64,000 nt of DNA from Heteronotia binoei (Eukaryota), in NCBI RefSeq assembly GCF_032191835.1, contig NC_083241.1:23436001-23500000 (forward strand), in the 5' to 3' direction. Made by a program: the position numbers. Every line of letters starts with the position of its first letter. Position 1 is the stretch's first letter. Below, in pieces: positions 6,001 to 16,900 of the stretch.

Positions 6001-9000
6001 TCCTCCTTGCTCAGGAATTCAATCTTGGCACAAAGACCCAGTTGAGACCAGGAAGACATGCTGTTGTTCAAGATGTTGGGAGAACTTTCTTCAAGACGAT
6101 ACACAGTGACTGGTTCTCCTGTAATGGCAGAGGACACAAATATCAGACACAGCTACCTGAAAGTGGGAAGAGGGTGTACCATGTGATTCAATAATTAGAG
6201 CTGTCAAAATGCAACTTTCTACCCTAGACACCATACCAGTGACCAGGGGTGGAATTCTAGCAGGAGCGCCTTTGCACATGAGGCCACACACCCCTGATGT
6301 AGCCAATCCTCCAAGAGCTTACAAAAAAGAGCCCTGTAAGCTCTTGGAGGATTGGCTATATCAGGTGGATGTGGACTAATATGCAAAGGAGCTCCTGCTA
6401 GAATTCCACCTCTTCCAGTGACCATTTTGTTAATGGATGCTTTTGTCACAATTGATATAAAATACTTTCAGAGTATACTGTCATCAGGGTGTTTTAGGGC
6501 AGTTATGGACAAGCAGGTGAGAAGACAAGATGTAGAAGAAACCATTTCCAGTGGGTCTTTTCATAATATATTCCTGGTATTCTCTGGCAACCCACAGACT
6601 ATTTTTAGAAGCTGTGAAGAACAAGTCTTTCATGTTTGGCTTTCGCAGTCAAGGAGCTAATCTTCCTGACCTTTGAAAGCCAGTGTTTACAGTTAGCCGT
6701 CTTACCTCTTGGAGGCACAGGGGTGAATGGGATGCTCTGTGACAACCTCATCAGATTATTTCTTTCAACAGCTGCAGAAAGGAGAAAGAAAATGTTGCAG
6801 AGCACTGGGTTAGTGAAGCAGCTACCACAACAGTGATCCGGCAGGCTCCCTGGTTCAAATCTTGTTTCTGCAGCAAACCTACTATATGGACTTTGGTGAG
6901 CTGCTTTCATTGTTGCTCATAACAATACTGGCCTGTTTTTCAGGGCTGTTGTCAAGGTTGCAACAAGGCAATACATGTGAAACGATGAAAGTGCTATTTC
7001 ACTGTGATTATTATTTTTGCTACCTTACAGAAATGTGCTGTTTCCACTTATTATCATGACTTGTAGCTTCTTAAGGATACTGACCTGAATAGTAGTAGGT
7101 GGAATCCATGATGGGCTTGAAAGGGGAAGCAATACCTAAAAGAAGACCAAGCAACTATTATATAGTTACATACACGTTCTGATTACATTTCTAAGATGTT
7201 GCATCAGTGCTTAGTTCTCGTGGCCCTTTCTTACACGCCCAGGGAAATGCTGTTCGCCACTTTGGGGTCAGGCAACAATTTTTCTCCAGGCCTATTTGGC
7301 CAGGGAACCTGGAGAGGTTTCCTCCACCCCGCCCCCCCCCCATCTTCTGAGCTAGGAGAAGGGTCACTGGGGATGTATGTGTGGGGGGGAGGTACTTGTG
7401 AATCTCCTGCATTATGCAGGAGGTTGGACTAGATGACCCTTGAGGTCGCTTTCAACTCTATGATTCTATGTATAGAAAAATGATATAGTATGTCTAAAAA
7501 GGAAACAGCCATTCTGTGTTTACAATTAACAAATACAGACTTGTTCACAAAATACAGAATGCTTTAACGATTGTAAGTTTACTGGACAGAACTATCCTAT
7601 CTAAATACATTACAAAAAGCTCCAAGAACATCTGCTTTACAACAAAGCACTGAATAACTTCACATAAATGTAATAAATGTGTCACCTTACTACCAAACTG
7701 CTTACCATTCAGAGCATCTTCTTCAGAAGACCTGTCAATGACAGAAATTTCAAATATCATTTTTAATCAAAAACTAGCAGATTCTAATGTTTAAGTTCTG
7801 TTTTTGTGCTCTCTCTCTCACAATTTGTGTGTGTTAACAAAAGAATTCAAAGTTACCGATGTGGTAATCTTAGGCACAGTAAAGGTGGCAGAATGGTCTG
7901 AACAAACACAGTCAGTTGCAATATCAAGGGGTCTTACTTACATCTGATTGCTGTATGAAGGTCGGCCTTGTACCCAGTCCTATAAGAAAAAAAACCTGAA
8001 GTTTTACATCTATGCAGTCCATTGCCTAACTGTTAGGTTTAGAACTACAGTGCCACCATTTTGGTGGTGGTATTTTTCCTCAAGTTGTTCTCAACATTGC
8101 TCTGTTGATCTATTAAAGGCAATGTAGATAATAATTATAGTTTTAATCTTTTTATTCAGCATTTCACCAGCATTTAAATACTTAGCAAGAATAAGACCTT
8201 AAAACTGACAAATGTTTAAAATAATTTCCAGGTTTTGAGGATGATTCAGACTTAGTGCAGGAGTTTGTTTAATTGTTAAAGATATTAAAGATGTAATCAT
8301 TGCTATTTTGAAAGTTTTTGCCTATTCCTTTAAAAACAGAACTCACCTCAGAATATTGTAATAATGATATTTTATTATCTGTTTCTGCATTTGACAACAT
8401 GTACTTTTACTAATACAGTTGATTTTACTTGTTGCATGTAATTATTCATATTATTTGAAAATTTCTGATAAATGTATTGGTCCCTACCTCTTTTTCCCCC
8501 TTCTGTACCCCACCTTTTCTTGATGGGAAAAAACCCCTTAATCATGAAAAAAAATCTGTTGATCAAAAGAAATCATTGTGTTCCTCACCCAAAGTGACTG
8601 CAGAGATCAAGTACGTCAACATAATCATTTTAGTGAAAAAACAGGTTTCCTACCTGTAACTGATGATCTTCGAGTGGTCATCTGTGCAGTCACACCAATG
8701 GGAGAGGCGCCGGCGCCGATCACGATCGGTAACTTCAAAGCCGCGGATTTCCGCGCCCCCGTCCCGGTGCGCATGCGCAGGCACCCCCCCTACTGCACAT
8801 GCCCAATGGGACAGGAGCGGACATCCCGCCAGTTCCTTCTGACCGCTGCAGGAGCCCTGGAGACGGACCCGCAGCAGTGGGGAAGGTGGGCGGGTAGTGT
8901 GACTGCACAGATGACCACTCGAAGATCATCAGTTACAGGTAGGAAACCTGTTTATCTTCTTCGTGGTCTCTGTGCATCACACCAATGGGAGAATAGCAAG

Positions 9001-13954: not shown

Positions 13955-16900
13955 TCCTGGGTGAGGTCCGAAGGACTGTCGTCTCTCACCAAGCACTGCG
14001 CCGAATCCAGATCTCGGTCGGAGGAGATCGCAATCTGCGTCGACATCGACTCGAGCGGCAGGTTCGGTCGATGGCGGATAGGAGAGGCCAGCAATTTTAA
14101 GGGTGGCAGGATCGGGGCCGAAAGGTCAGGCGGTGACGTTGGTGAAGGAGTCACAGGGACCTTCTTATGCTTCTGCTTATCAGATTTCTTCTTTGATCCC
14201 GCGGAGGCTCCCGTATCCTCCTTGGGCCTCTTCGCCGGCGTAGAGGTCTCCGATAACGATGCCGAGCCCGCTCTTTTCAGGGGGCGATCGGTATCGAGGG
14301 AGGTTTTGTCGGTATCGGCCACCGACATCGAGGATTTTGGCGCGCTTTCCGATGACGCCATGTTCCTCGGAGACAGCGCCTTTTCGACCAGGGCCGCAGC
14401 AAGACGAGCCGCTCGGTTTTTGCGGGTCTGCCGAGAAAATCTCGCGCAGTGGGTGCAGGAGTCCGGTTTGTGTGTTTCACCCAGACACAACAAACAAAGA
14501 GTGTGGCCGTCCGGAGGGGCGATTTTGCTGCCACACCGTCTGCACCGCTTGAAGAAGCCCCAGCGCTTTTCCATACGCGAAAAGCGTGGGGGTGAGGGGG
14601 GGAGGAAGGGAAGGGAAGGAAAAGGGGTACTAGAATCAGGAAGAAAATAACAAAATCACACTCCACCCCACTCACGAAGACGAAGAAGGCGATAACGCTA
14701 GAAGAGTCCGCACTGGAAAAACCAGCAAGGCTGAAGTATGTAATCCACCGACCGTAGGAAAGATCGACTGATCTCAACGGCGGTCAGAAGAGAACTGGCG
14801 GGATGTCCGCTCCTGTCCCGTTGGGCATGCGCAGTGGGGGGGGGGGGGTGCCTGCGCATGCGCACCGGGACGGGGGCGCGGAAATCCGCGGCTTTGAAGT
14901 TACCGATCGTGATCGGCGCCGGCGCCTCTCCCATTGGTGTGATGCACAGAGACCACGAAGAAGATCTGAGCAAGAATATGAGTTAATAATCCTTAAAACT
15001 GCAATCATCATGTAGTCCATTAAGATTTCTGTCCTACCCTAAACTACTGCATATCACATGAATGGCCCACCTGACCAGTTTCCTGACTGAAATGCAAAGA
15101 AGGAAGCCAGCAATCCCAGGCTCAACACAGACTGCTGGTGGAGTAACCCTAACACCACTCCATTAGCATTCAAAACCAAGAAGAGAAGGTGCAAACTGCT
15201 GCCATTTTGAATCATGATACAATTTGCTTAGAACCACACTCCTATTAGGCAGTAAGAAATGGACACAAAAGATGTGCCCAACAAATTCTTCAGAGGAATT
15301 TCAGGATGAACAAAAGAGACATGCCACTTTGGAGATGGCCTTCTCTGCAGGGCAACTTATTTGTACAAAGGTGCAACATGCAACACTATGTGACTCCACC
15401 TACTGTTTTCTTTCCATTACCACCGCTTCAACTTTGTAGGTTCCTGATTTCACACTGAACATGCAAAAGGAGCACCACAGAAGTAATATTACATGTTTCT
15501 CACCGTGAGTAAGGCTGCCTTAGAATCTGCCTGAGGAGACTCTTCAACTGATGTCTTTCTGCTCTTACTGTGCACTAGGAAATTGAATTCGGAATTAGGA
15601 TTGCTATGCAATTAGAAAAAAATTTAAAAAAACTGATGAATTAGCTTTTTAGTAGATCAATTTCATTTGAATAAATTTGCATGTTACCAGTGCTCCAGTA
15701 AACACTGAAGAAAGTGTCAGACAAAACGCTTTTATTTAAGAATAACGCCAAGAGCCAAAAAACTGCACACATTTTCACTTGAGACACCTCCCCCCTTGTC
15801 TCCTGGCAAACCTGTTCTAAAACTGATGGGAGCATCAGGAAGAGAGAAGCAATGGCTCAGATATGCATGGGTGGCTAATGCTGGAAAGAGAATGCAACCT
15901 CTTTAGTTAAAGCATTAATGAACCACCACCACCACCCCCCCCCCCCGCAAGCCTCCCTCTTTAAACATACAGAGGGGCTTTGCTTAGAATTTTAAAAATG
16001 TATTACTGCTGACTATTTTAAAGGTTTTAAAAATATTTTAAATGATGTATTGGTTTTATTATTATCTGTCTGGGGTCCCAATTTTCTGGGAGAAAGGTGT
16101 GTGTGATATAGCCTTGCAACACTATTCATAATTCATTGTGCATTCCAGAAAAGCATGCTTGTTTCTGAAATAAACACAGTGCAATTTTATTACGGTGACA
16201 GAGCTCAAAGGATCCTGCAGAGCAAGGTATTATTTTAAGAAATGAAGAGGACAGGACATGGGAGAAACCTAGCACTGTATTAAGGAGGAAAAATATTTCA
16301 AGAAAGAAGATGACTTTACCCCTACTTTAAAAATTAAAAAAAACCCCAAACCAATCATCATAAGCACACATGACACAGGAAGAGCTTGCATTTCTGCTCA
16401 AGAATTACTGTTACACTAGAACCCAGTTTACAAAATCCAGAGATTAAAAACTAAAAGAGCTCCTGCAAATACTCACATTGCTCTGAACGGCCGGCTATCA
16501 AGCTTCGATGGTATTCAGTGAAGCCGCCACATGAACTGACCTGTCTCAGGCTGCCTTCAGTGCCGCTACTGCCCTGCATGTTAGACAGACAAAAATGTTA
16601 TCAGCCATCACTCTATCGAAGTATTCAAGAGAGATTCTTTTCAGAGGTGACATGTGAATAGTGTTGCCTATGCTCACGGACATGGTGCATAAGAATCCCA
16701 AATGCCATGGTTCTACCTGCTGCCTTGTTGTCTCCATGCCTTCTAAAATTGCTTTTCTGAAATCCTCCTGTTGCTCCTATTTAAAAAAAAAAAGTACAAT
16801 CAAGGACTTCTCAGAATTTATTTCTTCTTGAAATGAAACTTCATTTCATTGTCATTTGTGACGGACAAATTTTAAAAATGCAAAATGTACTTTCCCCACA

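What the first reader, a model, noticed from the sequence alone, without database searches (positions are those of the whole stretch)
8639..14965. Structurally complete, young DIRS1-type retrotransposon between the TRPM7 channel and kinase exons
Seen: both ITRs are present, the 96-bp ICR matches both termini without a mismatch, CpG-rich ITRs are largely undecayed, and the pol and YR ORFs are open. The element makes up 6327 of the 7524 bp of intron 29. Established: this ITR+ICR layout defines DIRS1 elements, which integrate as circles through a tyrosine recombinase without a TSD. Inference: a recent, possibly polymorphic insertion in an essential gene, from a family that may still be active in this lizard.
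Basis: partly seen in the sequence, partly recalled or inferred. Interest (0 to 1): 0.68.

Follow-up and report, generated by a model that had tools for sequence, protein, structure and literature searches.

The report
Young DIRS1-like retrotransposon in gecko TRPM7 intron
A 6.3-kb DIRS1-type retrotransposon with little sequence decay sits inside an intron of the gecko TRPM7 gene; it is a new family of a well-known kind of mobile element, and its first gene is interrupted by a piece of another repeat.

Summary
Window 8639-14965 carries two inverted termini (outer 101 nt identical), a 96-nt internal complementary region matching both ends with no mismatch, an open 659-aa pol and an open 478-aa tyrosine recombinase. 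The element fills 6327 of the 7524 bp of TRPM7 intron 29 (7980-15503). It meets the DIRS1-like definition, and its terminus layout closely matches the published Anolis elements.

Corrections:
- TRPM7 (Heteronotia binoei, 100% match) and the element both lie on the minus strand, so the element is in sense orientation to the gene.
- The element is not fully complete. Its gag region is interrupted once by an antisense 3' piece of an endonuclease-type LINE, about 0.8 kb, ending in a pure (ATT)n tail.
- Integration as a circle is a model, not an established fact.

Youth is supported only from inside the window: 0 differences in 197 paired bases, CpG observed/expected 0.74 against 0.20 in the flanks, and two intact long ORFs. 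Polymorphism and present activity of the family could not be tested, because no eukaryotic genome collection was available. The nearest proteins in 5.8 billion are 51% (pol) and 58% (recombinase) identical. Verdict: a new member of a known kind, of modest interest.

The parts
8639..14965 (-). Whole DIRS1-like element (6327 bp). It codes on the minus strand, in sense orientation to TRPM7.
   Evidence: Ends are fixed by where the ICR complementarity stops. Flanks show no target-site duplication. GC is 0.55 against about 0.40 in the flanks.
14780..14965 (-). Left (5') terminus: divergent ITR part 14943-14965 (23 nt) and conserved ITR part 14780-14942.
   Evidence: Contains a strong internal hairpin (14795-14895, z -5.7).
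8639..8846 (-). Right (3') terminus: conserved ITR part 8690-8846, divergent ITR part 8666-8689 (24 nt), right extension 8639-8665 (27 nt, complementary to the ICR only).
   Evidence: Internal hairpin at 8740-8840 (z -3.7).
8897..8992 (-). Internal complementary region, 96 nt. The left ICR 8954-8992 (39 nt) is complementary to the start of the element. The right ICR 8897-8953 (57 nt) is complementary to its end.
   Evidence: Both halves are 100% complementary. It lies between the recombinase stop and the right terminus, as in DIRS1 (PMC3266345 passages).
12253..14574 (-). gag region (first ORF after the left terminus), broken: one insertion, a nested antisense LINE 3' piece of about 0.8 kb with an (ATT)n tail. 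No stop or frameshift was counted within either piece as far as each open frame runs.
   Evidence: - ORF pieces.
- The downstream piece resembles the region upstream of pol in 4 of 211 relatives, E 4e-11 to 5e-7.
- The upstream piece has no detectable relative.
- The nested piece is identified.
10055..12034 (-). pol ORF, 659 aa, intact. RT about 11180-11665, RNase H about 10625-10858, methyltransferase-like domain about 10058-10597.
   Evidence: - RVT_1 at E 4e-22 and RT_RNaseH at 1.3e-5.
- Best solved relative is Ty3 RT/RNase H at 1.8e-16.
- YIDD motif present and 0 internal stops.
- Relatives of 643-661 aa cover 96-97% of it.
- The C-terminal model has pLDDT 89.5 and matches adenosine methyltransferases.
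9036..10472 (-). Tyrosine recombinase ORF, 478 aa, intact. It overlaps pol by 418 nt. The folded part (residues about 143-477, 9042-10046) lies in the non-overlapping 3' portion.
   Evidence: - Phage_int_SAM_1 at E 7.6e-5.
- A profile of 33 relatives hits Cre/Tre at 1.4e-7.
- Phage_integrase is found in 21 of 33 relatives.
- The AF2 model matches Cre at E 4.9e-9, TM 0.71-0.73.
- R, K, H, R, W and Y are kept in 31-33 of 33.
7980..15503 (-). Host intron 29 of TRPM7 (7524 bp). Upstream exon 15504-15574, downstream exon 7942-7979.
   Evidence: tblastn of the named H. binoei TRPM7 protein P0212 against the window, read HSP by HSP. Splice sites were read.

Best explanation
This is one copy of a DIRS1-like (tyrosine-recombinase) retrotransposon, from a family not represented closely in public protein sets. 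It is inserted in sense orientation in intron 29 of TRPM7 of the gecko Heteronotia binoei, 538 nt after the donor site and 659 nt before the acceptor.

How such elements work, taken from the literature rather than shown here:
- A sub-genomic RNA is reverse-transcribed by the RT/RNase H of pol.
- The missing outer parts of the termini are rebuilt using the other terminus and the ICR as templates.
- The tyrosine recombinase inserts the product without a target-site duplication.

The copy looks young: its regenerated parts are still identical, its CpGs are largely undecayed, and pol and the recombinase are intact. Its gag region is interrupted by a nested antisense LINE fragment. I therefore infer that this copy is not autonomous; at most it could be a source of pol and recombinase proteins. 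Its effect on TRPM7 is probably neutral, because the annotated gene model splices across it.
For: Shown here:
- Terminus and ICR layout. Right extension 27 nt, divergent ITR about 24 nt, conserved ITR about 157-163 nt, ICR 39+57 nt. The Anolis elements AcDIRS1/2 have 26-28, 26, 136-140 and 40-58 / 39-60 (PMC3266345 Table 3).
- RT/RNase H of Ty3 type.
- Methyltransferase-like fold after RNase H.
- Cre-like recombinase with the catalytic residues.
- A 418-nt pol/recombinase overlap, with the folded recombinase part downstream of it.
- No target-site duplication.
- Host gene, strand and intron.
- The nested piece is the C-terminal end of an endonuclease-type LINE ORF2. It has 39,558 relatives at E<=1e-3. 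Of the 13 long relatives I scanned, 13 carry RVT_1 and 10 carry Exo_endo_phos, and the match always sits at their C-terminus. The tail is a 100% pure (ATT)28.7 array.

Youth:
- 0 differences in 197 paired nt, which include 32 CpG copies.
- CpG observed/expected 0.74 against 0.20 and 0.21 in the flanks.
- 0 stops in about 3 kb of pol plus recombinase.
Against: - No second copy of the family was seen anywhere. There is none in the window, none above 51% or 58% identity in the protein collection, and the exact proteins are absent from it. Family size and activity are therefore unknown.
- The conserved ITR arms differ by 3 substitutions (2 of CpG-transition type) and 2 length differences. If these arose after insertion, the copy is older, at about 1.2% divergence.
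- No target-site duplication of the nested LINE piece was found, so its mode and time of arrival are unclear.
- The upstream gag piece has no detectable relative. It is called gag by position only.
- The methyltransferase match is moderate (E 5e-4, TM 0.51-0.56).
- The mechanism itself is taken from the literature and not tested here.
Confidence: 0.85

Rival explanations
1. The copy was already defective when it inserted. The nested LINE piece was present in the parent copy, and this is a non-autonomous derivative that was copied using proteins supplied by other family members.
For: - No target-site duplication of the nested piece was found.
- The termini and ICR show no post-insertion change in 197 paired nt, which leaves little time for a later nested insertion.
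- In Dictyostelium, DIRS-1 proteins act in trans on RNA from a truncated element (PMC7192593 passage).
Against: - The (ATT) tail is 100% pure and the LINE ORF remnant is open to its natural end. Both fit a recent, separate insertion equally well.
- No other copy was available to compare.
Confidence: 0.2
2. An old, fixed insertion that only looks young. Its CpGs are preserved because the region is unmethylated, its repeats are kept identical by gene conversion between the termini and the ICR, and pol and the recombinase are kept open by host selection (co-option).
For: - All five differences between the ITR arms lie in the inner part (P = 0.014 for the 3 substitutions, 0.0008 for all 5). The repeats therefore do not evolve uniformly.
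- The annotated TRPM7 model tolerates the element.
Against: - The uneven pattern is what the replication model predicts: the outer parts are rebuilt at each cycle and the inner parts are inherited (PMC7192593 passages).
- The ORFs retain the overlapping arrangement typical of an element.
- gag is broken.
- No orthologue-like protein appears in other geckos. The best gecko hit is 46% identical.
Confidence: 0.05
3. An assembly artefact: a repeat wrongly placed in this intron.
For: None was found. There is an assembly gap or masked run elsewhere in the window (56102-56317).
Against: - Both junctions fall exactly where the ICR complementarity ends.
- The flanks are ordinary intron sequence with the splice sites in place.
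- There are no Ns in or next to the element.
Confidence: 0.02

Closest known systems
AcDIRS1 / AcDIRS2 of Anolis carolinensis (DIRS1-like; Piednoel et al. 2011, PMC3266345, Table 3 as seen)
   Same: - Same terminus architecture. No left extension; right extension 26-28 nt (27 here); divergent ITR 26 nt (about 24 here); a long conserved ITR of 136-140 nt (about 157-163 here); ICR halves 40-58 and 39-60 nt (39-57 here).
- Long pol/recombinase overlap, as in AcDIRS2.
- The element end is TTT and the adjoining ICR half begins AAA, as in the AAA junction listed for AcDIRS2.
   Different: - Size is 6327 bp here against 5938 and 5997 bp. Without the nested piece of about 0.8 kb it would be about 5.5 kb.
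- The element start is ATC, not TTT or CTT.
- Anolis recombinase-like proteins in the collection are only 42-50% identical, so this is a different family.
- I could not compare with the Anolis element sequences themselves, which are held in Repbase and not in these tools.
DIRS-1 of Dictyostelium discoideum (founding member)
   Same: - Inverted, non-identical termini whose outer ends are repeated side by side in an ICR near the right terminus (33+55 = 88 nt there, 39+57 = 96 nt here).
- gag, RT/RNase H/methyltransferase and a tyrosine recombinase.
- No target-site duplication (passages).
   Different: - 4814 bp there.
- ORF order and overlap differ.
- The host is an amoebozoan and the element is centromere-clustered. 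Here a single copy lies in a gene intron.
- Mobility and the ICR requirement were shown by experiment only there.
Cre recombinase of phage P1 (fold and chemistry comparator)
   Same: Two-domain tyrosine-recombinase fold (Foldseek E 4.9e-9, TM 0.71-0.73). The profile matches both the core-binding and the catalytic parts. The R-K-H-R-W-Y set is present.
   Different: About 16% sequence identity. Here the recombinase has an N-terminal extension of about 140 residues predicted as disordered, encoded in the overlap with pol. Its DNA target is unknown.

Membership tests
DIRS1-like retrotransposons (order DIRS) | Inverted terminal repeats | tested here: met
   101 nt at 100%, then an inner part with 3 substitutions and 2 indels; 93% over 186 columns overall. 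Shuffles give a maximum of 20 nt.
DIRS1-like retrotransposons (order DIRS) | Two adjacent internal complementary regions near the 3' end, complementary to the start and the end of the element | tested here: met
   8954-8992 (39 nt) and 8897-8953 (57 nt), both with 0 mismatches, between the recombinase stop and the right terminus.
DIRS1-like retrotransposons (order DIRS) | Right extension complementary to the ICR only, and a divergent outer ITR part | tested here: met
   Right extension 8639-8665 (27 nt). In the divergent part 15 of 24 columns are identical, within the 50-85% range given in PMC3266345.
DIRS1-like retrotransposons (order DIRS) | pol with RT and RNase H related to Ty3/Gypsy | tested here: met
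   RVT_1 at 4e-22 and RT_RNaseH at 1.3e-5. The best solved relatives are Ty3 RT/RNase H at 1.8e-16 and Ty3 Gag-Pol at 7.3e-16.
DIRS1-like retrotransposons (order DIRS) | Methyltransferase domain after RNase H (absent from Ngaro and VIPER) | tested here: met
   The last 180 residues of pol fold with pLDDT 89.5. All 3 PDB matches at E<=0.001 are cap-specific adenosine methyltransferase (E 5e-4, TM 0.51-0.56), followed by KsgA/Dim1/Erm methyltransferases. This is fold-level evidence of moderate strength; no Pfam model matched.
DIRS1-like retrotransposons (order DIRS) | Tyrosine recombinase instead of a DDE integrase | tested here: met
   No integrase (rve) domain in any of the 8 ORFs scanned.
DIRS1-like retrotransposons (order DIRS) | gag ORF upstream of pol | tested here: inconclusive
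   An ORF starts 391 nt inside the left end. Its downstream piece resembles the pre-pol region of 4 reptile relatives. Its upstream piece has no relative. It is interrupted once by a nested LINE piece.
DIRS1-like retrotransposons (order DIRS) | No target-site duplication; a short trinucleotide shared by the element junction and the target | tested here: inconclusive
   No duplication is present: the flanks are ...TAGTGAAA and CTGAGCAAG.... AAA ends the left flank and AAA begins the element on the plus strand, but there is no matching trinucleotide at the other junction.
DIRS1-like retrotransposons (order DIRS) | Replication through an ICR-templated intermediate and recombinase-mediated integration | not testable with these tools
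   Known from experiments on Dictyostelium DIRS-1 only (PMC7192593 passages).
Ngaro / PAT-like elements | Split direct repeats at the ends | tested here: not met
   Only 3 short two-copy direct-repeat families of 24-27 nt at 72-85% identity were found in 8000-15600. The ends are inverted.
LTR retrotransposons (Ty3/Gypsy) | Direct LTRs, DDE integrase, target-site duplication | tested here: not met
   No direct LTRs, no integrase domain, no duplication.
Crypton DNA transposons | Tyrosine recombinase without reverse transcriptase | tested here: not met
   An RT is present and intact.

The most novel reading that the evidence does not exclude
The family is active now in Heteronotia binoei, and this sense-oriented insertion is polymorphic between individuals or lineages of this species complex. 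By offering polyadenylation hexamers (4 on the sense strand) between the channel and kinase exons, it would alter the balance of kinase-containing and kinase-less TRPM7 transcripts in carriers.
Probability: 0.1. Interest if true: 0.55.

Novelty: new member of a known kind. Interest (0 to 1): 0.3.

Why it matters
DIRS1-like elements are among the least studied retrotransposons. Few copies with intact termini, ICR, pol and recombinase have been described in amniotes; the overview I read annotated two Anolis elements.

A barely decayed copy in a chromosome-level gecko assembly gives a clean reference for the terminus rules: right extension, divergent and conserved ITR parts, and ICR halves. It also gives a starting point for asking whether the family still moves in squamates.

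Its pattern of differences is a small natural observation in line with the replication model. The outer, rebuilt parts are identical and all differences lie in the inner parts.

For TRPM7 itself nothing points to harm. It is a large intronic passenger.

Tried and rejected
- **Plus-strand host gene.** I first assumed the host gene was on the plus strand. I scanned 300 plus-strand stop-to-stop ORFs of 45 aa or more against Pfam and one ORF against PDB. There were 0 TRPM or kinase hits. The gene is on the minus strand.
- **Recombinase against PDB by sequence alone.** Only a chance hit at E 0.56. A profile of 33 relatives was needed.
- **Upstream gag piece.** 0 of 211 relatives by BLASTP, one non-significant phmmer hit at E 0.1, no usable Atlas hit and no Pfam family.
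- **Atlas search for the nested ORF.** Only a weak lead, 'Reverse transcriptase family protein' at 0.88. It was settled.
- **Target-site duplication of the nested piece.** No exact match of 6 nt or more. The best was 5 nt, reached by 990 of 1000 shuffles.
- **Other copies of the element in the window.** None.
- **Exact look-up of the pol and recombinase proteins.** Not in the collection.
- **RNA genes.** Rfam gave 0 matches and tRNA search 0 genes in the intron.
- **Literature.** Of 95 papers holding 3 of the terms DIRS, squamate, gecko and retrotransposon, I saw the 15 listed. None had DIRS in a title or abstract together with gecko. This is not a claim that nothing is in print.
- **Not used.** The genome-contig scan holds bacteria and archaea only.
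- **Not done.** I did not close the gap left by the nested piece, join the two gag pieces, join host exons, or build any consensus.

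
Full report
**What is there**

Window 8639-14965 stands out by composition. GC is 0.55 against about 0.40 in the flanks, and CpG observed/expected is 0.74 against 0.20 and 0.21 in the two 2-kb flanks.

All long ORFs with recognisable domains lie on the minus strand, so the element runs from 14965 (5') to 8639 (3').

- Inverted arms 8690-8790 and 14842-14942 are 101 nt long and identical.
- The inverted match as a whole runs 8667-8846 against 14961-14780, 93% over 186 columns.
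- The 96-nt block 8897-8992 is the exact reverse complement of the last 57 nt (8639-8695) followed by the exact reverse complement of the first 39 nt (14927-14965).
- In 100 shuffles of the element, the longest exact inverted match was at most 20 nt, against 101 observed.

**Fine structure of the ends**

In the terms of Piednoel et al. 2011 (PMC3266345; I read passages and part of Table 3), the right terminus has three parts:
- a 27-nt extension (8639-8665) that pairs only with the ICR;
- a divergent ITR part of 24 nt, with 15 of 24 columns shared with the other end;
- a conserved ITR part, 8690-8846 against 14942-14780.

The two Anolis elements in that table have extensions of 26-28 nt, a divergent part of 26 nt, conserved parts of 136-140 nt and ICR halves of 40-58 and 39-60 nt. 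Here the halves are 39 and 57 nt. The architecture is therefore the same, down to the sizes.

The two conserved arms differ by 3 substitutions, two of CpG-to-TpG/CpA type, and 2 length differences. All of these lie in the inner part. If differences fell at random over the 259 paired positions, the chance of that is 0.014 for the substitutions and 0.0008 for all five.

Each terminus also folds into a strong hairpin centred on its homopolymer run (z -3.7 and -5.7; 0 of 200 shuffles fold as well).

**Genes**

pol (10055-12034, 659 aa) is intact:
- RVT_1 matches at E 4e-22 and an RNase H domain at 1.3e-5.
- The YIDD motif is present and there are no internal stops.
- The best solved relatives are Ty3 RT/RNase H (1.8e-16) and Ty3 Gag-Pol.
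- Relatives of 643-661 aa cover 96-97% of it.
- Its last 180 residues, modelled with 36 relatives, give pLDDT 89.5. All 3 PDB matches at E<=0.001 are cap-specific adenosine methyltransferase (E 5e-4, TM 0.51-0.56), followed by KsgA/Dim1/Erm methyltransferases. This is fold-level support of moderate strength for the methyltransferase domain that separates DIRS1-like and PAT elements from Ngaro and VIPER.

The recombinase ORF (9036-10472, 478 aa) is also intact and overlaps pol by 418 nt:
- Alone it finds nothing solved.
- A profile of it with 32 relatives finds Cre or Tre in 17 of 22 PDB sequences at E<=1, the best at 1.4e-7.
- Phage_integrase is found in 21 and Phage_int_SAM_1 in 19 of the 33.
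- The AF2 model has mean pLDDT 73. Residues 1-134 score below 50 and the rest mostly above 90.
- The model matches Cre/Tre at E 4.9e-9 with target TM 0.71-0.73.
- The catalytic R, K, H, R, W and Y are kept in 31-33 of 33 sequences.
- The folded part begins where pol ends. [quoted passage not shown]

**The correction: gag is broken**

The first ORF after the left terminus (gag region, 12253-14574) is interrupted once, by an insertion. I counted no stop or frameshift within either piece as far as each open frame runs. Without a close relative this count cannot be verified.

The inserted piece is about 0.8 kb and lies on the opposite strand. It ends in a 100% pure (ATT) array of 28.7 units. It carries an ORF remnant whose last 155 or so residues have many relatives in 1.84 billion representatives: 39,558 at E<=1e-3 and 14,548 at E<=1e-10. 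The match always sits at the relatives' C-terminal end.

I scanned the 13 long relatives (836-1134 aa). All 13 carry RVT_1 and 10 carry an Exo_endo_phos endonuclease. One is a chimeric gene model. The closest short hit carries no family.

The piece is therefore the 5'-truncated 3' end of an endonuclease-type LINE. I did not determine its clade. I found no target-site duplication for it.

The downstream gag piece resembles the pre-pol part of 4 of 211 relatives in hand (E 4e-11 to 5e-7). The upstream, Cys/His-rich piece has no detectable relative and is called gag by position only.

I compared the pieces apart. I did not close the gap, so I cannot say whether they are in register.

In four reptile gene models the gag-like and pol parts lie in one protein. 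Here they are in different frames, 218 nt apart. Whether that is the family's normal state is open.

**Host gene**

My first assumption, a plus-strand gene, gave 0 relevant Pfam hits in 300 ORFs. Minus-strand ORFs looked like TRPM channel and alpha-kinase exons.

The 430-aa ORF 20019-21308 matches TRPM7 of Heteronotia binoei at 100% identity (P0212, 2021 aa). Other squamates follow at 62-94%.

I searched the splice model exon by exon. tblastn of P0212 against the window gave 36 HSPs, all on the minus strand, from residue 2 at 62231 to residue 1949 at 415. I left out the step of joining the exons.

The element lies between the exon at 15504-15574 and the exon at 7942-7979. The former is the 29th in the order of HSPs. 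GT at 15503-15502 and AG at 7981-7980 give an intron of exactly 7524 bp.

The coiled-coil/Ser-Thr-rich exon is upstream (21251-20151). The exons that carry the protein's C-terminal part, where its Alpha_kinase domain is listed, are downstream (6140-415).

The element is in sense orientation, 538 nt from the donor and 659 nt from the acceptor. It carries 2 AATAAA and 2 ATTAAA hexamers on the sense strand. The annotated protein model runs across the intron, but I have no expression data.

That TRPM7 is essential is recalled from mouse work, not from a call.

**How it most likely works**

Shown here: the parts and their intactness.

From the literature (PMC7192593, abstract and passages):
- In Dictyostelium DIRS-1 the transcript lacks most of the left and nearly all of the right terminus.
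- The model of Cappello and colleagues rebuilds the left terminus from the right one, and both outer ends from the ICR.
- The ICR was shown to be essential.
- The cDNA is single-stranded and mostly linear, with at most a minor circular fraction.
- The double-stranded circle and the recombinase step remain inferred.

Inference: the outer ITR parts and the ICR-paired ends are newly templated at each cycle and therefore start identical, whereas the inner ITR parts are inherited. That fits the pattern here, with 0 differences in 197 outer or ICR-paired positions and all 5 differences in the inner part.

No target-site duplication is present. The plus-strand left flank ends AAA and the element begins AAA, but the other junction shows no such trinucleotide. 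The trinucleotide-crossover idea is therefore neither confirmed nor excluded.

**Age**

The evidence:
- There are 0 differences in 197 paired positions, which hold 32 CpG copies.
- The CpG content is high.
- About 3 kb of ORF is intact.

I assumed substitution rates of the order of 1e-9 per site per year, and about ten times that at methylated CpG. These are recalled orders of magnitude, not from a call. On that assumption the evidence bounds the insertion to a few million years at most.

If the 3 inner substitutions arose after insertion, divergence is about 1.2%, which still means a few million years.

This is 'young' in the sense of little decay. It does not show polymorphism.

**What could not be tested**

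There is no second copy in the window.

In the 5.8-billion protein collection:
- The best pol relative is 51% identical (1015 hits at E<=1e-10, best 120 listed).
- The best recombinase relative is 58% identical over 66% of the query (91 hits).
- One H. binoei gene model holds a 142-residue recombinase fragment at 66%, from another family.
- The exact proteins are absent.

Annotated proteomes usually mask such elements, so this says little about copy number.

I read no supplements. Repeat tables in the supplements of squamate repeat surveys (for example PMC6050309, seen only in a search listing) may bear on DIRS content in geckos.

**Comparison and verdict**

The element passes the structural and domain tests of a DIRS1-like element. 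It fails those of Ngaro/PAT (no split direct repeats), LTR elements (no direct LTRs, no integrase) and Cryptons (it has an RT).

It is closest in layout to the Anolis AcDIRS elements, but far from any available protein. It is therefore a new family of a known kind.

Interest is modest.

Noticed in passing
inside the gag part, window 12253-14574 (bounds withheld under the operators' rule): An antisense, 5'-truncated 3' end of an endonuclease-type LINE, about 0.8 kb. Its ORF2 C-terminal remnant is still open to its natural stop (best relative 75% identical), and it ends in a 100% pure (ATT)28.7 tail. No target-site duplication was found, and the clade was not determined.
   Followed up: yes
window 8740-8840 and 14795-14895: Each terminus holds an imperfect palindrome around its C/G homopolymer run. 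It folds into a strong hairpin (-55 and -52 kcal/mol, z -3.7 and -5.7). A hairpin near the 3' end of DIRS-1 RNA has been suggested as a primer for reverse transcription (passage in PMC7192593).
   Followed up: partly
window 20019-21308 (minus): The large TRPM7 exon is used in a long form in the H. binoei model (2021 aa; 85% of the ORF covered at 100%). Other gecko models of 1883-1886 aa cover only 54% of it. This suggests an alternative donor inside this exon, unrelated to the element.
   Followed up: no
window 28411-28739: A GC-rich tandem array (73-nt unit, 4.5 copies, 88% matches) in a TRPM7 intron. It accounts for the GC peak at 28-29 kb.
   Followed up: no
window 56102-56317: A run of 216 N in a TRPM7 intron, about 280 nt downstream (in the gene's direction) of the exon HSP at 56830-56594. 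I left it as it is.
   Followed up: no
protein P0193 (Heteronotia binoei gene model): A chimeric annotated protein whose first 142 residues are a DIRS-type recombinase fragment, 66% identical to the one here. The rest carries RVT_1 and chromo domains of a Ty3/Gypsy element. At least one other DIRS-like lineage has therefore left remains in this genome.
   Followed up: partly
window 9036-10472 (minus), residues 1-134 of the recombinase ORF: The N-terminal extension, encoded in the overlap with the methyltransferase-like end of pol, is predicted as disordered (pLDDT below 50). It is nevertheless covered by some relatives at 94-99% query coverage. How the recombinase is translated from this arrangement is unknown.
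   Followed up: partly
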